Assembly: GCA_021825655.1 (NCBI GenBank)
Contig: JAKAGU010000004.1
Coordinates: 11,599 to 75,598 of the forward strand
Direction: 5' to 3'
DNA length: 64,000 nucleotides
DNA from: a bacterium
GTDB taxonomy: Bacteria > Patescibacteriota > Doudnabacteria > UBA920
This document shows positions 52,276-64,000 of the stretch, piece after piece (the first letter of the stretch is position 1; each line of letters begins with the position of its first letter). A program made the translations under genes and the position numbers. The notes beneath the pieces are model-generated. The model was not told the origin of the DNA. It saw only the letters and a program-made list of their open reading frames with translations, and did no database searches.

Positions 52276-54129
52276 CTACTTAAGTATGGCATCACCTTTG
52301 GCATAAGCGTCGACCTCATCCTGAGACAAAGTGCTAACCCTGGAGAATTTATAGCCCCGGGCTTTGAAGGCTTTGGCGGACAACGGCCGAAGCTGGCTCT
52401 TGCTGACAAGGAAAATGGTTCCGGAAGACGAACCCTTTACCAGCGTGCCGTCCCGCGGCGGAATCGGAATGCCATCAAACCATTCCAGCGCCATATTGGA
52501 AGTAAACACGTAGTCAGGCGTAATGCCGCGCTGTTTGGCTACAAAAGCTGAAATTGGATGTTTGGTACCGTCTTTGAAAATATAAAGCGGCCCGGTTTTG
52601 CTGTCAGCGGAGAAGAAGGTGCGGTCTTTCGGGGTGGCAAAAGCGCCAATGGGCAACGCGCCGACTTCCTCGGAGCTTAAAGAGGCCACGTTCTTAAAGC
52701 TCAAACCCCGGTTTTTGAACAACTCGCCGGTAAGCGGACGCTTAAAGCCAGCTTCCATGAGGAAAACCGTGCCAGACTCAGCGGCTTTAACCAGAGTTCC
52801 GTCCAGCGGCGGAACAAAACCTTGCTGGGTGTATGTAGGGATTTCCGTATCAGGCACTATCACAATCTGTTTCGGGGTAACTTTGCGCTGTTTGAATGTA
52901 AATTCGGAAAACAGCTTAATCATTCCATTGTCAACCAAATATACTGCCGGGTTCTGGGCACCGCGAATTATTGTACCGTCATTGGGCGGCAGTACCGCAC
53001 CTGAGTCAAACAGCGCTCCATCCGAACTGGAAATAGTGAGGGCGGAAGCAAGGTCCAAACCCCGCTGTTTGATTACGAAGTCAGAAGCAGGATGCTTGAC
53101 ACCGGCAATAAATACATAGGTCTTGCCGTCGTCGGCCATCTTCACTACGGTATTGTCTGCTGGGGCAAAAATTTTATCCGTGGGGTAACTTTCAAATTCG
53201 TTCGGCGAAATGGTAATTTTTTTGGTTAGGTCCAAACCCCTTTGTTTTGCCACAAAGTCCGGCACTAGCTGCTTGGTGCCGTTCTGGATAATATAGGTCT
53301 TAATGTCGTTGGCCAGTGACAAAAGCGTGCCATTGGGATATCTAAACCAGCTGTTAAAAAATTTCCAGAAGTTGTAATTGCCATTAAAAACATGGGGGGT
53401 ATAGCGGTAAAGGGCCGCTGTGGCCAAATTACTCAAAGTAACAAATTGGCTCGGCGCCGCTTCGGCATAGCCCCCGGTTGTGTTGTCCAAAAGCACGCTC
53501 TCCCCCACTTTCGCCACCCTGCCATCCACTTGCGGGCCGCGGCCGCCGGGCGTGCTGTAAGACTTCATCAGGGATTTGGCCGCACCCAAATACCGGTTGC
53601 CGTCGGCGTCATAGTTGCCGAAGAGTTGGTAATAAAATCCAGGGAACAGATTGCCGCACCCGGAAGCATCGGGACAATCAAAACCCATGGCATGATCCAA
53701 GGCTCTTTGCAGGTGGTCAGGGTCATAGTCGTTAGCCGAGGTCACCAACCCCTGCTCTTTATTCAGTGTAACCAAAATAACCTGCGGGTTAAGGCCGCTT
53801 TGCAAGGAGGCGTCCCAGATTAATTCGGCCGCGGTCCTCAGGCGCCCCAGATTCGGCCGCGGGTCTTCCAGTCCGGTTTTTAAAAGCGAATTATCAGGTT
53901 CCTTGAGTTTAACCAAAAAGCTCGCAGAAGTATCGGCCAATACGGAATTTTTCGCTTCCAAAAATTTTTGTACGCCCTCGGGTCCGCCGAAAGTCTGAGT
54001 ATCGGCAAAAACTTTGTCGTCAATCAGCTTATTGGGGTCAAAGCCGGGGTCAATTTGGGCCAAAGCCTGCAGCGGAAAAACCAGCAACAAAAGTAGGCCG
54101 AGTATTTTTTTGAACTTTTGATTTCTCAT
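52276..54129 (-). CDS. Secreted protein with six tandem ~60-aa repeats of an unassigned module
   Basis: Signal peptide (LLLLLVFPLQALA), a ~280-aa N-terminal domain, then six repeats with consensus P.DGTLVK....VYL...G.K.PI....F..RG..F..V...S..E. The same repeats occur in the adjacent subtilisin. Confidence 0.45.
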   Translation of the reverse strand: MRNQKFKKILGLLLLLVFPLQALAQIDPGFDPNKLIDDKVFADTQTFGGPEGVQKFLEAKNSVLADTSASFLVKLKEPDNSLLKTGLEDPRPNLGRLRTAAELIWDASLQSGLNPQVILVTLNKEQGLVTSANDYDPDHLQRALDHAMGFDCPDASGCGNLFPGFYYQLFGNYDADGNRYLGAAKSLMKSYSTPGGRGPQVDGRVAKVGESVLLDNTTGGYAEAAPSQFVTLSNLATAALYRYTPHVFNGNYNFWKFFNSWFRYPNGTLLSLANDIKTYIIQNGTKQLVPDFVAKQRGLDLTKKITISPNEFESYPTDKIFAPADNTVVKMADDGKTYVFIAGVKHPASDFVIKQRGLDLASALTISSSDGALFDSGAVLPPNDGTIIRGAQNPAVYLVDNGMIKLFSEFTFKQRKVTPKQIVIVPDTEIPTYTQQGFVPPLDGTLVKAAESGTVFLMEAGFKRPLTGELFKNRGLSFKNVASLSSEEVGALPIGAFATPKDRTFFSADSKTGPLYIFKDGTKHPISAFVAKQRGITPDYVFTSNMALEWFDGIPIPPRDGTLVKGSSSGTIFLVSKSQLRPLSAKAFKARGYKFSRVSTLSQDEVDAYAKGDAILK

Positions 54130-54206: not shown

Positions 54207-56069
54207 TTACCTGATATACGGGTCGCCCTGGGACATGTTTTCCAAATCCTTGTCAGGAATGCTAAAAATCGAAAAAACGTTCAAGCCTTTTTCCGTGAAA
54301 AAGCCGTAGTTCATGGGATGCAAAACACCCGCCACTGTCCAATACACAGTCCGGTTTTTATACCCCCTGACGATAGTCCCGTCGGTCGGCGGCAAAAAAG
54401 AGCTGGTCACCCAGGAATTAAACTCGGGATAATCCACGGTATTAACCGCCTGAAAACTAAAACCCCTCTGTTTAAACACGTCATAGGTTATAGGCATCTT
54501 CTGCCCTGCATTAATAAGGTAAACCGCAGGCTGGCTGGACAGCTTAATTAGCGTGCCGTCGTCCGGTGTCACATAGGGCCCTTCGGGAAAATTATCAAGC
54601 AATTGCGCGCTCACGGTTTTTACCGGCGTGCCTGAAAACCGGCGGTTCATCACAAACGGAGACACGGGTCGCTTCTTCCCGCCGGAAATTTGGTAAACCA
54701 GGCCGGCGTCCGCCAGCTTGACCAAATCCCCTTCCTTCAACTCGTTAATTGCCAAAGAACCGGACAGGCTGCGGGGCACATTAATCCGGCCGGCCCCCAA
54801 AAGTCCGCGGCAGGAAAGTCCGCCGCACTGGGAAAGATTTTGGCTGTCTACGGAATCGGCAGTGGTGATTATTTTATCACGGATCTGGATATTGGTGGCA
54901 TTTGGAAAAACGGTTTTTATCAAAGCCGCCTGGCCGACAACGAACGGAACAGCCAGAGAGGTGCCGGAAGCATAGGCGTAAGAGTTAGGCGCATATTTTT
55001 TTGAAATGGGGTCGTGGTTAATAGTGGACAGTATGCGTTTGCCCGGGGCCACAACATCAATGCAATTTTTGCCGTAATTGGAAAAGCTTGGCTTAATATC
55101 ATTCTGGTCAACGGCGGCCACGCCGATAATCATATTCTGGTTGTTGTCGTCACAAATCGGAAATACGGGTTCAGTATCCAGGCTATGGCCTTCGGTGGCC
55201 ACGTCATTGCCCGCCGCAGCCACAATTACCAGGCCTTTTTTAAAGGCGTAATCGATGGAGTTCGCCAGAACCGTGTCATGCGCAAAGCCAATGCCCCCGA
55301 TGCTTAAGTTGATAAAACCCGCGCCGTGGTCTGCGGCCCAGACAATCGCCTCTGAGATCGTGGCCGCATCGCCCTTGCCCGACCCATCCAGGGCTTTTAA
55401 GGGCATAATGCTGATCTGCCAATTGGTGCCCGCTATCCCCAAATTATTATTAACTGCGGCGCCCAAAATTCCCGCCACCAGAGTGCCGTGGCCATTGTCA
55501 TCGGAATTGACCCGTCCCGAAATATCCTGGCGCGCCAAAAAATCAAAGCCCTTTACAAAAGTTATGGCCTGCAAATCTTCATGCGTCGCATCCACGCCCG
55601 TATCCACCACAGCCACGACATTGTCGCGGCTTCCGGTTACCACATTCCACACCTCGGGAAAGCCGGCTTTTTCCAAACCCCACTGCTTGTCAATGTCGGA
55701 AGTGTTGAGGGTAAAGCCCGGGTCGTTTACCGATACGGCTTGTTCGTCAAACGGGCTGACCGGTTCCAAATAATCGTATTGCCCGGAAAAATCCTGGCGC
55801 AGCTCCTTTGTTTCGCAGGCGCATTTAAAAGAATAGATATTCTGAAAATCCGCTGAGTTCGTGCCCGTAAAGCGCTGCTGGTAATTTTTATCCAGGCTTC
55901 CTAGCATTCCGGCAGCGGCTGCAGAGGCTTTAAATTTTACCAAAAACTCGCGGTTTTGCGGCAACGGGGCATATGCAAAAGCCGCGCTCGCGGGGAAAAC
56001 CGCCGCCACAAGCGCCGCCAACAGGCTGAGTGAAATGAATAAAAATTTTATTCCGCCCTTTAACTGCAT
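54207..56069 (-). CDS. Subtilisin-like serine peptidase (S8) with three C-terminal copies of the ~60-aa repeat module
   Basis: Catalytic triad regions VAVVDTGVDATHEDL / HGTLVAGILGA / GTSLAVPFVVGQAALI. Signal peptide present. The C-terminal 180 aa carry the repeats (e.g. PDDGTLIKLSSQPAVYLINAGQKMPITYDVFKQRGFSFQAV). Confidence 0.85.
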   Translation of the reverse strand: MQLKGGIKFLFISLSLLAALVAAVFPASAAFAYAPLPQNREFLVKFKASAAAAGMLGSLDKNYQQRFTGTNSADFQNIYSFKCACETKELRQDFSGQYDYLEPVSPFDEQAVSVNDPGFTLNTSDIDKQWGLEKAGFPEVWNVVTGSRDNVVAVVDTGVDATHEDLQAITFVKGFDFLARQDISGRVNSDDNGHGTLVAGILGAAVNNNLGIAGTNWQISIMPLKALDGSGKGDAATISEAIVWAADHGAGFINLSIGGIGFAHDTVLANSIDYAFKKGLVIVAAAGNDVATEGHSLDTEPVFPICDDNNQNMIIGVAAVDQNDIKPSFSNYGKNCIDVVAPGKRILSTINHDPISKKYAPNSYAYASGTSLAVPFVVGQAALIKTVFPNATNIQIRDKIITTADSVDSQNLSQCGGLSCRGLLGAGRINVPRSLSGSLAINELKEGDLVKLADAGLVYQISGGKKRPVSPFVMNRRFSGTPVKTVSAQLLDNFPEGPYVTPDDGTLIKLSSQPAVYLINAGQKMPITYDVFKQRGFSFQAVNTVDYPEFNSWVTSSFLPPTDGTIVRGYKNRTVYWTVAGVLHPMNYGFFTEKGLNVFSIFSIPDKDLENMSQGDPYIR

Positions 56070-56893: not shown

Positions 56894-58144
56894 TTAGTTT
56901 TGTTTAAATTGTTTCCAGGCGGTCTCGATAATTGTTTGCAAATTACTGTGCGTAGGCTCAAACCCCAGAAGCGTTTTGGCCTTGCGCGGGTCGGCAATCA
57001 GCAAATCCGCATCCCCCGCGCGACGAACGCCTATCTCCATAGGAATCATGCGGTTTAACACCTCCGCGGTTGCGTTAATCATCTCAAGTACGCTGTAGCC
57101 CCGGCCGGTGCCTATATTAAAAACCTCAAAACCCGCAGACTGGGACAGAAACTTTAAACCCAGCTCATGCGCCTGGGCAATATCCAAAACGTGTACAAAA
57201 TCGCGCACGCAGGTGCCGTCCGGCGTGGCATAATCGTTGCCGTTAACCTGGATCTGCGCCTTGTCCCCATTGGCAACCTCTAGTATGTTGGGTATCAGAT
57301 GCGAAGCGTGTGTTGGCTTTATCAGCCCGTCAAAATCGCAGCCGCAGGCATTAAAGTACCTGAAAACAATCGCCGCCACACCCGAATACTTAGAGTGATA
57401 CTCGATAATTTTTTCCGCCACAAACTTGCTGTGCCCGTAAGGATTACCGGGGCTGACCGGGGACTCTTCCGAAAGCGGTCTGCCTCCGGCCGGATCATAC
57501 AGCGCGCAAGTGGAGGAAAAAACAATTTTTTTAACCCCGAACTCATGCATCACCGAAAGCAACTTGGAAGTGTTGATGGCATTGTTCTCCAAATACCTTT
57601 CCGGCTGCCTTACGGACTCTTCGACTTCTATGCTGGCTGCCAGATGCATTACGGCTTCAAACTGGTTGGAAGCAAATACGTCCCTGACAAAGTTCATGTC
57701 AGCCAAGTCGCCTTCATAAAAAACTGCGCCTGAGGGCACGTTTTCCCGTTTGCCGGTGGAAAGGTTGTCCAGAACCGCGACTTGGTGGCCGCTGGCCAAA
57801 AGTTTTCTGGCCACATGGGAACCAATATAACCCGCCCCGCCCGTAACCAGAATTTTTTTGCCTTGGGTTGCGGCCGGGCTGGCCGGGGAAATCTGTTCAA
57901 CCTGGGGCGCCGCGGCTTTGGACACGGACTCTTCCGCAGGCAGGCCGCCCACCAAAGCGTTGTACTTATCAATGGTTAAAACCACAACCGCGGGCTTATT
58001 GTCCAGATTCAGAATCAACCCGCCGTCCCGCTGTCTGGCTTCGGAAATTAACTCTTGCAAATATTGGTTATCCATAAATATTGCCTTTGCGCCAACTTTT
58101 AAGGCAAAGCCGGCGCTTAAAGTCCTAACAACAAACCACAGCAC
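56894..58144 (-). CDS. galE: UDP-glucose 4-epimerase GalE with a ~95-aa N-terminal extension
   Basis: Core KKILVTGGAGYIGSHVARKL...YxxxK (PYGHSKFVAEK). The first ~95 aa (from the GTG at 58144, or ATG at 58075: MDNQYLQELISEARQRDGGLILNLDNKPAVVVLTIDKYNAL) precede a P/A-rich linker. Confidence 0.85.
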   Translation of the reverse strand: MLWFVVRTLSAGFALKVGAKAIFMDNQYLQELISEARQRDGGLILNLDNKPAVVVLTIDKYNALVGGLPAEESVSKAAAPQVEQISPASPAATQGKKILVTGGAGYIGSHVARKLLASGHQVAVLDNLSTGKRENVPSGAVFYEGDLADMNFVRDVFASNQFEAVMHLAASIEVEESVRQPERYLENNAINTSKLLSVMHEFGVKKIVFSSTCALYDPAGGRPLSEESPVSPGNPYGHSKFVAEKIIEYHSKYSGVAAIVFRYFNACGCDFDGLIKPTHASHLIPNILEVANGDKAQIQVNGNDYATPDGTCVRDFVHVLDIAQAHELGLKFLSQSAGFEVFNIGTGRGYSVLEMINATAEVLNRMIPMEIGVRRAGDADLLIADPRKAKTLLGFEPTHSNLQTIIETAWKQFKQN

Positions 58145-58316: not shown

Positions 58317-61300
58317 TTAGCTAAACAGGGCTCTTAGCGCCTTGGCAGCCAAGTCGCGGCGGCGGAAGAGCGCAAAGCTGGCGCTGGACAAACCGCCGAA
58401 AACGAAGGCCAAGGAATCAGCGCCGGTTTTTGGAGCCACAAAGGCGCCTAAAACCTGCTGCTGGGGCTGATTAATTCTGACACTTACGGTATTGCCGTAA
58501 GTATTGGACATCAAATAGGTAACCCCGGAAGAAATAGAATACTTTATCCTCACCCGGAAGCTCTTAGAAACGCTGCCTCCGGCCGGAATGGTCAAACCCT
58601 GGAAGTTGATAGTATTGCCGGATAATTGGCCGCCTCCGTTATCGGAAAGGTCAGCGTAAGGCAACACCTGGGACAAATCGTCGCTGATTACAAAATTGGT
58701 AGCCGGCGTATTGCCATTATTGCTTACTGTCAGGGTGTAAGTGATATAATCTTCGCTGCTGGCAGTGACCAGCGTGGCATCCGAATTCTTGGTATCGTTA
58801 AAGCCGCGCTTGGAATAAGCCAGGTTAACATTACCGCCGGCCACTGAACCGGACACGAATACCCAGGCATCGTCCTGCACCTGGCTGACCGAATCGCCGC
58901 TCACGCTCGCGGTGTTTCTGATGCTGTCTCCCGAATTCCCCGTAACGCGAGCCTGGAAAGTCATAGTGCGGGAATCATTGGCATACAGGGTGCCGATGTA
59001 GTAATCGTTGTTGCCGGTAAAGTTGCCGGAAACCCAAGATAAACCGCTCGGCAGATAATCCGTAACCCGGACATTATTCACGGGCTGATTGCCGGTGTTG
59101 CGCACCACAATCTGGAACTCCACAGTGTCATTATTGTTGGCGGACACGCTCTTCTGGAAGCTGCCGTAGTTGTTCCGCACGGTCTTGCTAATGGACAGCT
59201 GGCGGAATTCGTTGGAAGGCACCGTATTGCCGTTCTGGATGTAATAGAAGTAGTTATTCGTAGTTGTGGTGTTGGTGGTATTGGTTGTATTCGTGGTATT
59301 GGTGGTGTTTGTAGTATTGGTGGTATTAGTGGTGTTGCAGGAATTGTTGACGCAATTATTATAATTGCCCGGGTTCACCGGGGCAGCCGGGATATAGGCC
59401 ACCGCTGACACCAAAATAGTGTTGCAGTCCGCATCAATCATGTAGAAAGAATGCGTGCTGCCAGCAGCCAGGTTGCTTACGGTATAGCTGCCGGTGCTGC
59501 CGCCTGTGGCAATGACGTTGCTGGAGCTGTCCTGGGCAAGTTTAATCTGATGGTTGCCGGTAGAAGTCCAGTTTACCGTCAGAGAATAGGTGTCGTTATT
59601 TTTTACCGGCGTGCCCAGATTCAGCGCATAGTTAGTGTTGCTAATGCACTGTGTCTGCTCGTCTTGCCTGACAATCAGAGTATCCAACAAACCGCCGCAG
59701 GAAGAAATATCATAGAGCCGGAATTCATAAGTTAGGTTGGGCTTAATACCTGTTACATCGCGGCTGCCCGAAGCCATCGCAGAGCTGACCAGTGTATGTT
59801 CCTGGCCGTCTTCCGGGTCCAGGTAAGTCAGCTTAACCGGATTACTGCCGGAGAAGGAATAGAACAACGTACCGCGGTAGGTGCCGTCGCTGTTTTTCAC
59901 CAATGCGCCCCGGGTCAGGTCGGCGCTCTTGTTGATTTCACAAACCGGATTACCCGGATTGACCTGCGTATAACAGCTGGCTGTCTGGCTGCCGCTCTGC
60001 ACGGTCACGGTTTTCTGGCCGGTTGTGCTGTAAACGGTGCTAAAATTGGTTCCGCTGCCGCTGCCCGGATTGCCGCTGCCTGCTGTCCAGGTGTAAAAAC
60101 CCGTACCGCCGGTGGCGGAAAAATAGGCAGTATTGCCTACTGTTACAGGGCTATTTAAAGCCGAACAGGACAACTGGACTACCGGAGGCCTGACGGTCAC
60201 AATCGGACAATAGGCAAACTTGCTGCCGCTTATAACCTTAACCTGTTTGGAACCGGACGAAACATAGCGGGTAACAAAATCCGTCTGGCTGCTCGCGCTC
60301 TGAGTCGCGGGGTTGCCGTCCGGCGCATTAAAGGCAAATGTGCCGTTGCCGCCCGAAGCGCGGAAGGTTACGGGCTGGTTAATATCGACAACAGAGCTGC
60401 CGACAATATCACACTGCACGTCATTGGGCTGCACTTGGTTAACCACCACAGCCGGACAATCCACGGACTGGTTGCCGCTTGTCACCCTCACGGTCTTGGT
60501 GCCAGAAACGGCATAAGAAGTGTTAAAGTTCGCCCCGCTGCCGCTGCCCGGATTACCGTCGTTCGCAATCCAGGAATAAGTGCCGGTGCCGCCAGTGGCC
60601 GAAAACATGGCCGCCTGGTTGGTGTTAACATTCGGCGTCAGGGTCTGACAAACCAAAGTCGGCGTAACGGGCGTACAATCCTTTACAATAAAATTAACGC
60701 TCTTTCTCACGCCATCGATGTTGGCTTCTTTGCGCCAGGAACCAATCTGGTCAGCGCGCCAGGCTGTGCCCAGCTGAGTCCAGTAGCCCTGGTTATTCAA
60801 ATACAGGCCGTAGTCGGTATCGACTTCGCCGGTGGAAGCGCCGTTAAAGAAGGAGCTCCACAAGATTTTTTTGCCGGCCATGGCGGGGCTGGAAGTGATG
60901 GTGTACTGGGTGCCTTCGCCCACGCAGAATTCGGTTTTGTTGATGGTAAAATTGTAGTCAACCGGAGTGCCGCCGCAGGAAAGATCCGGAACCAAAAGCT
61001 GCTTCCGGGCCAATTCAGAGTGCTGGCCGTTCGTGGTGTTGTACATAATGTACAAATAGGTGTGGTTCGGGGTCAGCCAGGGGGTATCGGCATGGCCGTT
61101 GATATCGCGGGCCAAAATCTGGGTGGCCGTATTATCGGTAATATCCTGCACGGTAATTTCCGCATCAGTCACATCGGAAGAGTTGGTCCAGTCCACCGTG
61201 CCGGTCCTAAGACACTGCGAACCAATCTGGCCGCCGGCAGAGGCGGTCAGGGTGTTTTGGCCGGTGGGCGCGGTTTTTACCACGCGGACGGTAAACACGA

Positions 61301-61958
61301 TAAATTTGCTGTATTTAAAACAGCCGTTTAAGTCATTCAAATGGGCTACTACGGCCGGCTCGCCGTTCTGGGTGCTCAGCGAAACGCTGCCCGCGCTGCT
61401 GTCATAGTTGCCGAACCAGTCTTCGAAGTGCTGGCTGCCGGGAACAATCTGGAGTTTTTCGTCGCTGGCCGTGGTAATGTTAATCGCGCCGGTAATGCTG
61501 CCTGCGTTGCTGCTGGTTACAGTCGTACCGATTACGTGGTTAGGCTCGGCATTATCATTTACTGTAATCACCGCGTTTATATTCTGCGCATAACCGTTGC
61601 CTTCGGCAGTGCCGTTATGCACATACGACCAGACGTCAAAAGTCTGCCCGTCAGAAGCGCTGACTTGCTGGGTCCTTTGGCCGTTATATACTGCGAGCAA
61701 GGACGGAAAATCGTGGCAGGGATCCTGGCCGGCATTAAAAGAAGTCGGAAACGGGTTAAGTGTCGGCACAGACGGCGCGTTATCGCACACCACTTCGCCC
61801 TGCGCAGACAGCCGCGGGTCATTTGCCCTGGGCGCCAACGCAAAAACCGCGGCCGTCACAACGAACAAAACCGCGGCCGTGGTGTGGCCGACTTTTTTCA
61901 AACTCATGTTCTTGGCCACAGCTTTGGCTTGGCCAATAATTCCGATTAACTGGTTCAT
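58317..61958 (-). CDS. Giant (1213 aa) cell-surface protein with PKD-like and DUF11 repeats and a C-terminal sortase-type sorting signal
   Basis: Signal peptide; three ~95-aa PKD-like tandem repeats (FSATGGTGTYSW..GNPGSGSG.NF); a (TTN)n tract; two DUF11-like repeats (VEFQIVVRNTGNQPVNNVRVTDYLP; TYTLTVSNNGNTPATNFVISDDL). The C-terminus is VAPKTG, then hydrophobic LAFVFGGLSSASFALF, then RRRD. Confidence 0.7.
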   Translation of the reverse strand: MNQLIGIIGQAKAVAKNMSLKKVGHTTAAVLFVVTAAVFALAPRANDPRLSAQGEVVCDNAPSVPTLNPFPTSFNAGQDPCHDFPSLLAVYNGQRTQQVSASDGQTFDVWSYVHNGTAEGNGYAQNINAVITVNDNAEPNHVIGTTVTSSNAGSITGAINITTASDEKLQIVPGSQHFEDWFGNYDSSAGSVSLSTQNGEPAVVAHLNDLNGCFKYSKFIVFTVRVVKTAPTGQNTLTASAGGQIGSQCLRTGTVDWTNSSDVTDAEITVQDITDNTATQILARDINGHADTPWLTPNHTYLYIMYNTTNGQHSELARKQLLVPDLSCGGTPVDYNFTINKTEFCVGEGTQYTITSSPAMAGKKILWSSFFNGASTGEVDTDYGLYLNNQGYWTQLGTAWRADQIGSWRKEANIDGVRKSVNFIVKDCTPVTPTLVCQTLTPNVNTNQAAMFSATGGTGTYSWIANDGNPGSGSGANFNTSYAVSGTKTVRVTSGNQSVDCPAVVVNQVQPNDVQCDIVGSSVVDINQPVTFRASGGNGTFAFNAPDGNPATQSASSQTDFVTRYVSSGSKQVKVISGSKFAYCPIVTVRPPVVQLSCSALNSPVTVGNTAYFSATGGTGFYTWTAGSGNPGSGSGTNFSTVYSTTGQKTVTVQSGSQTASCYTQVNPGNPVCEINKSADLTRGALVKNSDGTYRGTLFYSFSGSNPVKLTYLDPEDGQEHTLVSSAMASGSRDVTGIKPNLTYEFRLYDISSCGGLLDTLIVRQDEQTQCISNTNYALNLGTPVKNNDTYSLTVNWTSTGNHQIKLAQDSSSNVIATGGSTGSYTVSNLAAGSTHSFYMIDADCNTILVSAVAYIPAAPVNPGNYNNCVNNSCNTTNTTNTTNTTNTTNTTNTTNTTTTNNYFYYIQNGNTVPSNEFRQLSISKTVRNNYGSFQKSVSANNNDTVEFQIVVRNTGNQPVNNVRVTDYLPSGLSWVSGNFTGNNDYYIGTLYANDSRTMTFQARVTGNSGDSIRNTASVSGDSVSQVQDDAWVFVSGSVAGGNVNLAYSKRGFNDTKNSDATLVTASSEDYITYTLTVSNNGNTPATNFVISDDLSQVLPYADLSDNGGGQLSGNTINFQGLTIPAGGSVSKSFRVRIKYSISSGVTYLMSNTYGNTVSVRINQPQQQVLGAFVAPKTGADSLAFVFGGLSSASFALFRRRDLAAKALRALFS
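59261..59336 (-). repeat. Imperfect 9-nt tandem repeat (ACCACCAAT-like) encoding (TTN)8 inside the surface-protein gene
   Basis: The coding strand reads AACACCACTAATACCACCAATACTACAAACACC..., giving NTTNTTNTTNTTNTTNTTNTTNTT. Confidence 0.7.
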
Positions 61959-62044
61959 AAATACCTTTAATGCCTGTTACTTTGCCCGTCTAATGGGAAA
62001 AATAAAAGGGTTTAAACAAATAAGTTTTTACTTATTAACCTCAA

Positions 62045-62073
62045 ACTATACACCAAAAATAGGTTTTTGTCAA
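62045..62073 (-). promoter_or_regulatory. Sigma-70 consensus promoter for the giant surface-protein gene
   Basis: The minus strand reads TTGACA, 17-nt spacer, TATAGT, about 80 nt upstream of the ATG at 61958. Confidence 0.55.
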
Positions 62074-62268
62074 GACTTACTCAAAATTTTTGCCTTGATT
62101 AAGCCAAAAAATAATAACTTTTGGCCTAAATTTAAGTAAAAATTCATATTATTTTAACATTTTGCGCTGTTCCTATCAATTCAATCTTCAATCTGTATTT
62201 TTGGTCTGGTGCGGGGAGGAAAATATGCTTTTGGCAAATCCCCCTCCCCGACCTTTAGCGTTGAATCG

Positions 62269-63210
62269 TTACGGTCTACCGGGCACCCAATACTTGATGT
62301 TGGCTGCCCCGCCACCCGGCAAGGCAAAGTAAATGCCCGCACCGGCAGCCAAACAGCCGACTTTCTCAATGGTGCCGGGAAGGCTCCAATTCTTGATGTC
62401 GACTGTCCACGCGTAGAGGCAGTTCAGTCCCGGCAAGTAAAACAGCCAGAACCGGCCTTTTTTGTCGAGCTTAACCGTACCCACGCAGATGACTTCGTGA
62501 CCCTCGCTATCGTGGGTTTTGAAGGCAATCTGGTGCTCGCCTTTGCCCGCCAGTTTCAGCAGGCGGCTATGCGAGACCAAAATGCTGGAGCCGATACCAA
62601 GCGGTTTGCCGTCAATGCTCCACTCGCCGGAGGCATACCCATCGGTCACTTTGCTGGTGAGCCTAATGATCTTGCTCTTGGGATTGAGCTCGATCACCAT
62701 CTCACACGTCGGGCAAGTGTGCTTGGGCACTTCGGCTGCAGGCGGCGGCACCGGAGCGGGTTCGGGTTCCGGCGGCGGTTGCCTGCGGACCACGGGCGGA
62801 ATTGGGGCGGGCGGCTCAGGCTGCGGCGGCAGAAAGACCTCGAAGATCTCATTGCCGCACCGGCCGTCAGCCACGACCTTACCGCCCTGCGTGAAGAGCG
62901 GCGTGTTGGCAGGCATTCTGATAATACGATGCCCCATGGCAGTTTGTTCCCGAGCGCACACATCAAAGGGGTAGCTTATCACCCCGGCTTCGTGGTTCTC
63001 GAGTCTTTCTTGCCAGGCGCCGAGGCGCGTGGTGTCGCGCGGTTCGTAAACCTTGAACGCCGGGGCCGCAAGGCAGGCCGACCCTTCCGTGAAGAAAGTC
63101 GGCGTGTGAATATCGGCCTGCGGGTCGTACTTGGTATAGGTTTGCTGCCCCCACGCGATTGCGCCGAAGACAACGGAAAAGACCACGAGCATCAAAACGA
63201 TTCTTTTCAT
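62269..63210 (-). CDS. Secreted hypothetical protein with a proline-rich linker, in a GC-rich segment
   Basis: Start at MKRIVLMLVVFSVVFGAIAWGQ (ATG 63210, GGAGG 6 nt upstream). Central PPQPEPPAPIPPVVRRQPPPEPEPAPVPPPAAEVP. C-terminal Cys-containing domain. The ORF-track start at 63264 is probably too long. Confidence 0.5.
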   Translation of the reverse strand: MKRIVLMLVVFSVVFGAIAWGQQTYTKYDPQADIHTPTFFTEGSACLAAPAFKVYEPRDTTRLGAWQERLENHEAGVISYPFDVCAREQTAMGHRIIRMPANTPLFTQGGKVVADGRCGNEIFEVFLPPQPEPPAPIPPVVRRQPPPEPEPAPVPPPAAEVPKHTCPTCEMVIELNPKSKIIRLTSKVTDGYASGEWSIDGKPLGIGSSILVSHSRLLKLAGKGEHQIAFKTHDSEGHEVICVGTVKLDKKGRFWLFYLPGLNCLYAWTVDIKNWSLPGTIEKVGCLAAGAGIYFALPGGGAANIKYWVPGRP

Positions 63211-63352
63211 TGCAACCCTCCTCAGAGTTGACTTGGAACTGGCGTACCTCGCGGCACGCTGCATGGTTTCCCGAAACAGCGTCTGCCGGGTACCACAGCG
63301 CCGCTAAAATTTTACTTTTAGCGGCACAAGGTACTTAGCAAGAAAATCAATC

Positions 63353-64000
63353 TTAATCTTTTTCTATCTGGGTCAGCTCGCCGAACACAACTAAGCGTTT
63401 GGCAGTCGAGCCCACGGGCCAGCAGGTGGAAAGAGCCACCACGGACTTGCCGGTATTGGCAAACTGTTCCTGATCAGTCGGCTTGTATTCTTTGCTGCCG
63501 GTGACCACATAATGCAGGCGGGCGTCCTTGCCGTTCTTTTGTACCACGGTAATCTTAAACGAGGTGTTCGCAGGCAGGTCGCCCAAAGTGGCAAAAATCT
63601 GATTATAGCTGCCCTTGGCCCAAATATAATTACTGGAGTGGCCGGAAATATAGGAGGTGCCGATTTGGCCCGGCAAGGCAGTGCCCGGATAATGCACTAC
63701 GCCGTTTTGCAAGTCGCGGGTGAAATTCTTCGTATCTGTCGTCCAAATCAAAGGCACATTAATGTTCAAGGAAGGGATTTCCAAACGGCCGGGAACGCTG
63801 GTATCCACATCCAAACCGTTAATACCCAAAGTGTCCTGGGCAACCGCGTTGGTGTTTGCGCCCGTGGCTGGAGCCGACAGGGGCTGAATATAATTTGTAG
63901 TGTTATTGTTTTGGGCGGGCAAGCCAAAAGTCGAATTGTTGTTCTGAACTGCACCAGTCTGGCTACCACCAGCTGAACTGTTGTTTAGCTGGAAAAGACT
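63353..64000 (-). CDS. Sortase (transpeptidase), C-terminal catalytic domain; gene continues past the window end
   Basis: Catalytic His (YISGHSSNY), the TLxTC motif (VALSTCWPVGS) and a downstream Arg. The ORF-track TTG start at 63922 is not the true start: the frame stays open to position 64000 through an N/T/Q/S-rich linker. Confidence 0.75.
   Translation of the reverse strand, partial: SLFQLNNSSAGGSQTGAVQNNNSTFGLPAQNNNTTNYIQPLSAPATGANTNAVAQDTLGINGLDVDTSVPGRLEIPSLNINVPLIWTTDTKNFTRDLQNGVVHYPGTALPGQIGTSYISGHSSNYIWAKGSYNQIFATLGDLPANTSFKITVVQKNGKDARLHYVVTGSKEYKPTDQEQFANTGKSVVALSTCWPVGSTAKRLVVFGELTQIEKD

What the first reader, a model, noticed from the sequence alone, without database searches (positions are those of the whole stretch)
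58317..64000. Sortase with a giant PKD/DUF11 adhesin carrying a non-canonical APKTG sorting signal
At the window end there is a sortase catalytic domain (His in ISGHSS, TLxTC as LSTCWP, and a downstream Arg). Its N-terminal part lies beyond position 64000. Two genes downstream, the 1213-aa surface protein ends with VAPKTG, then a hydrophobic stretch (LAFVFGGLSSASFALF), then a positively charged tail (RRRD). This is the tripartite architecture of a sortase cell-wall sorting signal, but the pentapeptide is APKTG rather than LPXTG or LAXTG. The adhesin combines three PKD-like repeats, a (TTN)n spacer and DUF11 repeats. Inference: this is a dedicated sortase-substrate pair producing a covalently wall-anchored giant adhesin. 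In small-genome epibiotic bacteria such proteins are candidates for host-cell attachment.
Basis: partly seen in the sequence, partly recalled or inferred. Interest (0 to 1): 0.55.

Follow-up and report, generated by a model that had tools for sequence, protein, structure and literature searches.

The report
CPR sortase with linked APKTG-anchored surface protein

Summary

- **Sortase.** Window 63353-64000 (-) is the C-terminal 215 residues of a 467-aa sortase. I recovered the full gene from an identical public contig. His, Cys and Arg are invariant in 120 homologs.
- **Substrate.** The 1213-aa protein (58317-61958, -) has a signal peptide, Ig-like/PKD-like/FN3-like modules, a (TTN)n spacer and two DUF11 domains. 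It ends in APKTG, a hydrophobic stretch and RRR. This tail just passes NCBI's LPXTG-anchor model.
- **Conservation.** In 35 of 39 informative loci from different Doudnabacteria-type species, a large protein ending in AP[KTQRN]TG lies downstream of the sortase on the same strand. A, P, T and G are invariant.
- **Class.** The sortase reaches no class C-F cut-off and gave no hit to any other class model. Class C is the nearest relative.
- **"Dedicated" is unproven.** Smaller unlinked proteins in related CPR contigs carry the same signal.
- **New finding.** 43 of 120 sortases, including this one (APATG, 63860-63874), carry their own [AS]PxTG motif in the disordered linker before the catalytic domain. 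About 1 is expected by chance.
- **Literature.** In the library searched, APxTG appears only as the target of engineered sortases.

Verdict: a new variant of a known system, of moderate interest.

The parts
63353..64000 (-). Sortase gene, C-terminal 215 codons plus stop. The full gene is 467 aa and continues beyond the window edge.
   Evidence: Open frame to position 64000. Pfam Sortase E 7e-20. Full gene on L001:6473-7876. AF2 model plus Foldseek hits to solved sortases.
63860..63874 (-). APATG motif inside the sortase's own disordered linker, 24 residues before strand beta1. It resembles the substrate's sorting signal.
   Evidence: Coordinates. [AS]P.TG is found in 43 of 120 homologs against 1.0 expected from shuffles, with a maximum of 6 in 1000 shuffles. 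The linker has pLDDT below 50.
63632..63649 (-). ISGHSS, containing the catalytic His (H373 of the full protein).
   Evidence: Invariant in 120 homologs. Coordinates.
63386..63433 (-). LSTCWP (catalytic Cys445, a variant of TLxTC) through AKRLVV (Arg454).
   Evidence: L442, S443, T444, C445, W446, P447 and R454 are invariant. Coordinates.
62269..63210 (-). 313-aa accessory gene. It has a signal peptide, a Pro-rich stalk, a C-terminal hydrophobic helix and a Gly-rich tail ending VPGRP. It shows no sortase signal and is lineage-specific.
   Evidence: The start is supported by a GAGGAGGG Shine-Dalgarno sequence. No Pfam or NCBIfam hit. Homologs occur only in L005, L046 and weakly L021. LPGT is not conserved. 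Analogous genes sit at the same position in other loci.
62045..62073 (-). Promoter-like site TTGACA-17-TATAGT upstream of the adhesin gene.
   Evidence: 11 of 12 consensus matches. This is a consensus match only.
58317..61958 (-). Gene for the 1213-aa surface protein, the sortase substrate.
   Evidence: ORF. Gene call of identical length on L001. Orthologs lie next to the sortase in most loci.
60969..61826 (-). N-terminal conserved region (residues ~45-330), made of two all-beta Ig-like sandwiches. This is the likely distal, ligand-facing part.
   Evidence: 25-35% identity to orthologs. AF2 pLDDT 80, all beta strands. Foldseek returns only generic Ig/FN3 tandems.
59949..60665 (-). Three ~80-aa Cys-bracketed PKD-like repeats (residues 432-670).
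   Evidence: Pfam PKD 34.5 bits and PKD_4 28 bits on the fragment. Sequence shown.
59253..59336 (-). (TTN)n low-complexity spacer, encoded by an imperfect 9-bp tandem array.
58569..59195 (-). Two DUF11 (TIGR01451) domains (residues ~922-1130). This is the most conserved part of the protein family.
   Evidence: Pfam DUF11 E 3e-18 with 2 stretches, and TIGR01451 E 1e-17. 50-60% identity to orthologs.
58320..58436 (-). Cell-wall sorting signal: APKTG (58422-58436), hydrophobic segment LAFVFGGLSSASFALF (58365-58412), RRRD (58353-58364), and an 11-residue tail.
   Evidence: TIGR01167 LPXTG_anchor 16.5 bits against a cut-off of 15.9. A, P, T and G are invariant in 35 species.

Best explanation
This is a sortase-mediated surface-display system of a Candidatus Doudnabacteria (Patescibacteria/CPR) bacterium.

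**Proposed mechanism.**
- The 1213-aa protein is exported through its N-terminal signal peptide.
- It is held in the membrane by its C-terminal hydrophobic segment and RRR stop-transfer tail.
- The membrane-anchored sortase encoded two genes upstream uses Cys445 to cleave between Thr and Gly of APKT|G.
- The resulting thioester is resolved by an amine of the peptidoglycan precursor.
- A stalk of DUF11, FN3-like and PKD-like modules is left covalently attached to the wall. It holds a conserved N-terminal Ig-like region away from the cell.

**What is shown.** The enzyme family and an intact catalytic triad. The signal architecture and its conservation. The conserved gene linkage.

**What is inferred.** Cleavage at T|G, the peptidoglycan acceptor, and an adhesive role.

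The sortase probably also handles a few smaller APxTG proteins encoded elsewhere in the genome.
For: - **Sortase identity.** Pfam and TIGR01076 cut-offs are passed. H373, C445 and R454 are invariant in 120 homologs. The AF2 catalytic domain has pLDDT above 90 and matches solved sortases at E 1e-12. A TM helix is predicted at residues 78-102.
- **Signal.** The tail passes TIGR01167. Homologs end in AP[KRA]TGA[DN] followed by a TM segment and a basic cluster.
- **Linkage.** 35 of 39 loci with at least 7 kb downstream carry such a protein 41-5402 bp after the sortase on the same strand.
- **Conservation.** A, P, T and G are invariant in 35 species.
- **Restriction to the C-terminus.** A profile of the signal finds 88 cluster representatives among 1.84 billion proteins. 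About 70 look genuine, and nearly all match at the extreme C-terminus.
- **Window content.** This is the only protein in the 64-kb window with such a signal.
- **Precedent.** Small residues at motif position 1 are known. C. difficile SrtB cleaves SPKTG and PPKTG between T and G and does not cleave LPETG (PMC4155245).
- **Background.** Sortases are common in CPR (PMC6744442).
Against: - There are no biochemical data for any member of this family.
- The acceptor is unknown. The peptidoglycan type was not examined.
- The TIGR01167 score is only just above its cut-off.
- The tail after the basic cluster is longer (11 aa) and more conserved (..LLKLIFT) than in textbook signals. It may carry an extra function.
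- The adhesive role rests only on Ig-like, PKD-like and DUF11 domain content.
- Four informative loci lacked a detectable substrate.
Confidence: 0.78

Rival explanations
1. The sortase is a general (housekeeping) enzyme for a small set of APxTG proteins, not a dedicated partner of the adjacent protein. The gene linkage reflects only the most conserved substrate.
For: - Proteins with the same APxTG + TM + basic tail but different bodies exist: P0158 (PKD-like, 280 aa) and the P0191/P0201/P0205/P0216 group.
- Their contigs show no sortase within 10 kb.
- One such contig (L082) is colinear with window 25.7-33.1 kb at 43-60% amino-acid identity, so it comes from a related organism.
Against: - No second substrate lies in the 64-kb window.
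- Almost none lies in ~1.3 Mb of sortase-flanking loci.
- Whether the unlinked proteins and this sortase family occur in the same genome was not shown.
Confidence: 0.45
2. The sortase is a class C-like polymerase that joins copies of the large protein, or joins it to the neighbouring 313-aa-type protein, into a fibre rather than attaching it to peptidoglycan.
For: - Class C is the best-scoring class model (55.5 bits).
- Class C enzymes are the best PDB sequence hits and the best structure hits (27-29% identity).
- A motif-bearing segment sits where class C enzymes carry their lid. The lid position is from my own knowledge.
Against: - The class C cut-off of 160 bits is missed by a wide margin.
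- No YPK-type pilin motif is present in the substrate.
- There is no C-terminal membrane helix and no DP[FWY] lid in the linker (sequences).
- There is only one substrate gene per locus.
- Class A and class E structures score almost as well.
Confidence: 0.1
3. The C-terminal segment is only a membrane anchor. APKTG is an unprocessed conserved linker, and the neighbouring sortase acts on other proteins.
For: No cleavage data exist. The conserved tail after the basic cluster is atypical.
Against: - The motif is strictly invariant at A, P, T and G next to variable hydrophobic residues.
- It is conserved adjacent to the sortase gene.
- The tail matches the curated LPXTG-anchor model.
Confidence: 0.05

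Closest known systems
Clostridioides difficile SrtB and its (S/P)PxTG substrates (PMC4155245)
   Same: The motif has a small residue at position 1 and is often xPKTG followed by an acidic residue (SPKTGD, PPKTGD compared with APKTGAD). Cleavage between T and G was demonstrated there. There is a single sortase with a handful of adhesin-like substrates.
   Different: That enzyme is a class B sortase. The window enzyme gives no class B hit at all. Ala at position 1 is invariant here. The organism is a CPR bacterium. The enzyme is 467 aa with an extra ectodomain.
Class C (pilus-assembly) sortases, e.g. Actinomyces oris SrtC1 (2xwg), C. diphtheriae SrtA (5k9a), C. perfringens SrtC (7d6p)
   Same: These are the nearest solved relatives by sequence profile (E 3e-7) and by structure (E 1e-12, 27-29% identity). 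They also carry a regulatory segment just N-terminal of the catalytic barrel.
   Different: NF033745 scores 55 bits against a cut-off of 160. There is no DP[FWY] lid, no C-terminal TM, no pilin-motif substrate and no multi-pilin operon.
Operon-linked accessory sortase-substrate pairs, e.g. streptococcal SrtB-AbpA (PMC4974636) and S. aureus SrtB-IsdC (own knowledge)
   Same: The sortase gene sits beside the gene for a substrate that has a non-LPXTG signal.
   Different: Those are class B enzymes that coexist with a housekeeping SrtA. Here no second sortase is seen in the window, and the motif and enzyme clade differ.
Engineered S. aureus SrtA variants F40 and F1-21 that accept APxTG (PMC9126251)
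   Same: They have the same target pentapeptide. APKTG was the test peptide for F40, and APATG of histone H3 was the application.
   Different: Those are laboratory mutants of a class A enzyme with low activity. The Doudnabacteria enzymes would be natural APxTG users, but their specificity is untested.

Membership tests
Sortase superfamily (Pfam PF04203 / TIGR01076, cysteine transpeptidase) | Score above the curated family cut-offs | tested here: met
   PF04203 scores 71.5 bits against 26.6. TIGR01076 scores 43.5 against 39.35 on the window fragment, and 41.2 on the full protein.
Sortase superfamily (Pfam PF04203 / TIGR01076, cysteine transpeptidase) | His / Cys (TLxTC-type) / Arg catalytic residues | tested here: met
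   H373, L442-S443-T444-C445 and R454 are invariant in 120 homologs. The motif reads ALSTC rather than TLxTC.
Sortase superfamily (Pfam PF04203 / TIGR01076, cysteine transpeptidase) | Eight-stranded beta-barrel sortase fold | tested here: met
   The AF2 catalytic domain has pLDDT 85-98. Foldseek gives E 1e-12 to many solved sortases.
Sortase superfamily (Pfam PF04203 / TIGR01076, cysteine transpeptidase) | N-terminal membrane anchor with an extracytoplasmic catalytic domain | tested here: met
   A hydrophobic helix at residues 78-102 (LLLPYLALFIFGVFAYYFFF) is predicted as a helix. Topology is inferred.
Sortase superfamily (Pfam PF04203 / TIGR01076, cysteine transpeptidase) | Transpeptidase activity on a sorting signal | not testable with these tools
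   This needs the enzyme assay described under next steps.
Class C sortase (NF033745) | Curated class cut-off (160 bits) | tested here: not met
   55.5 and 53.8 bits. It is still the best-scoring class.
Class C sortase (NF033745) | Lid with a DP[FWY] motif before beta1, and a C-terminal TM helix | tested here: not met
   The linker sequences show no DP[FWY]. The protein ends 13 residues after Arg454 with no hydrophobic segment. These class features are from my own knowledge.
Class C sortase (NF033745) | Substrates with a pilin (YPKN-type Lys) motif | tested here: not met
   No YPK or WxxxVxVYPK is found in the 1213-aa protein.
Class D, E and F sortases (NF033746, NF058671, NF033747, NF033748) | Curated class cut-offs (140-166 bits) | tested here: not met
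   43.3, 43.6, 40.5 and 23.9 bits. No other class model appeared at E<=0.01, or at E<=10 for the full-length protein.
LPXTG-type cell-wall sorting signal (TIGR01167) | Curated HMM cut-off (15.9 bits) | tested here: met
   16.5 bits for the window tail and 16.6 for an ortholog tail. The margin is small.
LPXTG-type cell-wall sorting signal (TIGR01167) | xPxTG pentapeptide, then a hydrophobic segment, then a basic tail, at the extreme C-terminus | tested here: met
   APKTG, then a 16-aa hydrophobic segment, then RRR, all within the last 39 residues. Position 1 is Ala, not Leu. The pattern is conserved in 35 species.
LPXTG-type cell-wall sorting signal (TIGR01167) | N-terminal signal peptide on the same protein | tested here: inconclusive
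   By eye there is a basic n-region and a hydrophobic h-region (KKVGHTTAAVLFVVTAAVFALAPR), conserved in orthologs. No signal-peptide predictor was available.
LPXTG-type cell-wall sorting signal (TIGR01167) | Cleavage after Thr and amide linkage to peptidoglycan | not testable with these tools
   This needs biochemistry or mass spectrometry.

The most novel reading that the evidence does not exclude
The Doudnabacteria-type long sortases form a separate class that naturally uses APxTG. The [AS]PxTG[A][D/N] motif in their own pre-catalytic linker is functional. It could be a tethered pseudo-substrate that gates the active site, as a literal-substrate version of the class C lid. Or it could be a self-cleavage site that detaches the catalytic domain from its membrane-anchored ectodomain.
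Probability: 0.3. Interest if true: 0.65.

Novelty: new variant of a known kind. Interest (0 to 1): 0.47.

Why it matters
**Biology.** CPR bacteria are thought to live attached to other cells, but few of their surface attachment systems are defined. This locus gives a concrete, phylogenetically conserved candidate: one sortase clade, one invariant signal (APxTG), and one conserved large surface protein with a variable middle. It can be searched for in any Doudnabacteria genome and tested with peptides.

**Biotechnology.** APxTG-accepting sortases had to be engineered to label proteins such as histone H3 at its native APATG (PMC9126251). A natural enzyme family whose substrates all carry APxTG is a plausible source of an orthogonal ligase.

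**Regulation.** A substrate-like motif inside the enzyme's own linker, if functional, would be a mode of sortase regulation for which I found no precedent in the library searched.

Tried and rejected
- **Signal-profile word search.** The third homologous-protein search, with a profile of the 45-aa signal (A3), found only one protein. The word index is unsuited to so short a query. The full HMMER scan did the job instead.
- **Is the 313-aa protein a second substrate?** Its LPGTIEK plus hydrophobic tail looked suggestive. The motif becomes LVGT in the L046 homolog and there is no basic stop-transfer tail, so I rejected this.
- **Is the sortase linker motif docked like a lid?** AF2 leaves residues 238-303 disordered with pLDDT below 50. 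There is no structural support for docking, though AF2 would not necessarily show it.
- **Function of the adhesin N-terminal region.** Foldseek against the PDB gave only generic Ig/FN3 tandems with TM about 0.25.
- **Literature on a sortase pseudo-substrate or self-cleavage.** The search returned nothing relevant. No paper combined Doudnabacteria with sortase.
- **A P0201-type unlinked substrate in the window.** I looked at the position syntenic with L082. It is absent and synteny breaks at 33.4 kb.
- **False positives in the profile search.** Hits with repeated ISIHAPRTGSD (P0175, P0183, P0187 and similar) match internally, not at the C-terminus. I discarded them as spurious.

Full report
**What is in the window**

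The last 5.7 kb carry three genes on the minus strand.

- The frame 63353-64000 has no upstream stop and runs off the window. Its 215 residues match the Pfam Sortase domain (E 7e-20).
- A 313-aa gene follows at 62269-63210. Its start is supported by a GAGGAGGG ribosome-binding site.
- After a strong promoter-like site (TTGACA-17-TATAGT, 62073-62045) comes the 1213-aa ORF 58317-61958.

The large protein ends in VAPKTG-ADS-LAFVFGGLSSASFALF-RRRD-LAAKALRALFS. It contains:

- three Cys-bracketed PKD-like repeats (Pfam PKD 34.5 bits on the fragment);
- an FN3-like segment (weak fn3 match, 21.3 bits against a cut-off of 25);
- an (NTT)n spacer encoded by an imperfect 9-bp array;
- two DUF11/TIGR01451 domains.

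**The missing part of the sortase**

An exact-sequence look-up of the 313-aa protein found the same DNA on public contigs, including GCA_021840085.1 JAKBZI010000006.1 (L001). There the sortase is 467 aa. Its parts are:

- a ~80-residue cytoplasmic N-terminus;
- one hydrophobic helix (residues 78-102);
- a conserved, mostly helical ectodomain (~121-232, pLDDT above 90) with no Pfam match;
- a low-complexity linker (238-303, pLDDT below 50);
- the catalytic barrel (323-467).

Upstream of the sortase lie a CAP-domain protein, a polytopic membrane protein and epimerase/dehydratase and nucleotidyl-transferase genes. Downstream of the adhesin lie an epimerase, a GT2 glycosyltransferase, an S8 peptidase and a secreted repeat protein. 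This is an envelope-related neighbourhood.

**Organism**

The sortase has 437 detected homologs, of which the best 120 are listed. These are 366-547 aa long, and most align over nearly their full length at about 50% identity. Where named, they come from Candidatus Doudnabacteria or Patescibacteria MAGs.

**Is the enzyme a real sortase, and of which class?**

- H373, the L-S-T-C445-W-P block and R454 are invariant in 120 sequences.
- The AF2 model of the catalytic domain matches solved sortases at E about 1e-12.
- Only the generic TIGR01076 model passes its NCBI cut-off.
- Class C scores 55 bits against a cut-off of 160. Classes D, E and F score 24-44 bits against cut-offs of 140-166. No other class model appears.
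- The closest solved proteins are class C enzymes (profile E 3e-7; 27-29% identity). Class A and E structures score almost as well.
- The class C hallmarks (DP[FWY] lid, C-terminal helix, pilin-motif substrates) are absent.

I therefore treat it as an unclassified, CPR-specific clade nearest to class C.

**Is APKTG a real sorting signal?**

Four lines of evidence say yes.

1. The tail passes NCBI's LPXTG_anchor model, though only just (16.5 against 15.9 bits).
2. Homologs of the large protein end in ...PQV.GAF[IVYT]AP[KRA]TGA[DN]T, then a hydrophobic segment, then [RK]KRK..L..LIFT.
3. I fetched 77 loci around relatives of the sortase from one genome per species. In 35 of the 39 Doudnabacteria-type loci with at least 7 kb of downstream sequence, a same-strand ORF starts 41-5402 bp after the sortase stop codon and ends in such a signal. 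Most of these ORFs are 800-2350 aa. Eight shorter loci show the same arrangement. The pentapeptide is APKTG in 36 loci, APTTG or APNTG in 2 each, and APQTG or APRTG in 1 each. In an alignment of 35 tails, A, P, T and G are the only invariant columns.
4. A profile of the signal was searched against 1.84 billion cluster representatives. It found 88 at E<=0.001. About 70 of them are genuine, and nearly all match at the extreme C-terminus.

Ala at position 1 is thus a fixed property of this system, not a local oddity.

More distant sortase relatives were fetched from Paceibacteria-type genomes. Proteins encoded 0.5-3 kb upstream of them on the same strand end in SPQTG, SPKTG or SPETG. C. difficile SrtB is known to cleave SPKTG and PPKTG but not LPETG (PMC4155245). 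A small first residue therefore has precedent.

**Anatomy of the substrate family**

Orthologs share the N-terminal ~330 residues (25-35% identity) and the C-terminal ~300 residues (DUF11 x2 plus the signal, 50-60% identity). The middle varies in repeat content and length.

The N-terminal region models as two beta-sandwiches (pLDDT 80). These resemble only generic Ig/FN3 tandems.

This is the layout of a wall-anchored stalk carrying a distal conserved head. It is compatible with an adhesin but does not prove one.

**Dedicated pair or small regulon?**

- The window holds no second protein with such a tail. The ~1.3 Mb of flanking loci hold almost none besides the linked one.
- The profile search did recover other bodies with the same tail. 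P0158 is a 280-aa PKD-like protein. The P0191/P0201/P0205/P0216 group has no Pfam domain.
- Their contigs have no sortase within 10 kb.
- One such contig, L082, is colinear with window 25.7-33.1 kb at 43-60% amino-acid identity, so it comes from a relative. The window lacks that gene at the syntenic place.

I conclude that the linkage is real and ancient, but exclusivity is unproven.

**A motif in the enzyme itself**

Aligning the sortases showed an island of conservation in the otherwise variable linker: T-[AS]-P-x-T-G-A-[ND]-[LI], 20-29 residues before strand beta1.

- It is present in 43 of 120 homologs. Shuffled linkers give 1.0 on average, and at most 6 in 1000 shuffles.
- The window enzyme has it as APATG-AN at 63860-63874.
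- Several sequences without the exact motif keep remnants such as xQTGAD or PPVNTGA[DN]L.
- It closely resembles the substrates' APKTG-AD.
- It lies where class C enzymes carry their lid (own knowledge).

AF2 leaves the segment disordered, so docking is not supported. An exposed flexible site is what a cleavage site or a tethered competitor would look like. Related sequences inflate the count, so the enrichment is indicative rather than a formal probability. I found no precedent in the library.

**The gene in between**

- The 313-aa protein has homologs only in the closest relatives (L005 at 87%, L046, and weakly L021).
- Its LPGT is not conserved.
- About 26 loci have 1-5 kb between the sortase and the substrate. 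In about 20 of the 26, that gap holds a gene for a protein of the same general build: signal peptide, often a Pro-rich stalk, a basic patch before a Gly/Ala-rich C-terminal helix, and a short Gly/Pro-rich tail that often ends in ..GRP..GKP or ..RGP.
- These fall into several small BLAST clusters.

The role of these proteins is unknown. I record them as an accessory element, not as a part of the mechanism.

**Comparison with the known, and novelty**

Sortases are known to be frequent in CPR. Family fam000526 occurs in more than half of CPR genomes (PMC6744442). Generic models already label both proteins here.

In the library searched, I found no description of the following:

- an invariant natural APxTG signal;
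- its strict linkage to a distinct long sortase clade across a CPR class;
- the self-motif.

APKTG, APXTG and APATG occur in the held literature only as targets of engineered S. aureus SrtA variants (F40, F1-21), used for example on histone H3 (PMC9126251). No paper combined Doudnabacteria with sortase.

I rate this a new variant of a known kind, of moderate interest. It is solidly supported as a system but mechanistically conventional. It has one unexpected feature worth an experiment, and a possible use as a natural APxTG ligase.

Noticed in passing
window 63860-63874 (-), and sortase homologs P0001-P0120: The sortase carries its own sorting-signal-like motif (APATG-AN here; consensus T-[AS]-P-x-T-G-A-[DN]-[LI]). 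It sits in the disordered linker 20-29 residues before the catalytic domain. It is present in 43 of 120 homologs against about 1 expected by shuffling.
   Followed up: partly
window 62269-63210 (-), and the gaps between sortase and substrate in L006, L010, L012, L014, L016, L021, L024, L026, L027, L043-L045, L048, L051, L053, L058, L066, L067 and L070: In about 20 of the 26 loci with a gap of more than 1 kb, the gene(s) between sortase and substrate encode fast-evolving secreted proteins of one general build. They have a signal peptide, often a Pro-rich stalk, a basic patch, a Gly/Ala-rich C-terminal helix, and a short Gly/Pro-rich tail that often ends in GRP, GKP or RGP. Their function is unknown.
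   Followed up: partly
L082:5237-6454, L083:10001-11395, L085:10001-10843: Smaller proteins with the same APxTG + TM + basic tail are encoded far from any sortase gene in CPR contigs. Examples are a family lying just upstream of DinB and UppS genes, and a 280-aa PKD-like protein near type IV pilus genes. L082 is colinear with window 25.7-33.1 kb.
   Followed up: partly
window 52276-54129 (-) and 54207-56069 (-): The S8 subtilase (620 aa) and the neighbouring 617-aa secreted protein both carry several copies of a similar ~65-aa repeat (..G.K..I....F..RG..) in their C-terminal halves. No Pfam family matched the 617-aa protein. This may be a non-covalent wall- or surface-binding repeat.
   Followed up: no
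window 56894-58144 (-): The NAD-dependent epimerase has a ~95-residue N-terminal extension. It gives a weak, sub-threshold match to the Phd/YefM antitoxin domain (E 0.009, 16 bits against a cut-off of 29.8).
   Followed up: no
window 59253-59346 (-): The (TTN)n spacer of the adhesin is encoded by an imperfect 9-bp/27-bp tandem array. Slippage there would change spacer length in frame, giving length variation rather than phase variation.
   Followed up: no
L001:6473-7876, residues 121-232 of the sortase: There is a confidently modelled (pLDDT above 90), mostly helical ectodomain between the membrane helix and the linker. It has invariant D159-N-S-G-N-G-L-x-N...K170 and N176-P177 residues and no Pfam match. 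The DNSGNGL stretch resembles a degenerate thrombospondin-type-3 or dockerin calcium-binding loop (own recollection, not tested).
   Followed up: no
loci L006-L013 and others: Many GTDB representative MAGs that carry this Doudnabacteria-type sortase and adhesin are titled 'uncultured Candidatus Saccharibacteria bacterium' in their records. This is probably a labelling artefact of that submission batch.
   Followed up: no
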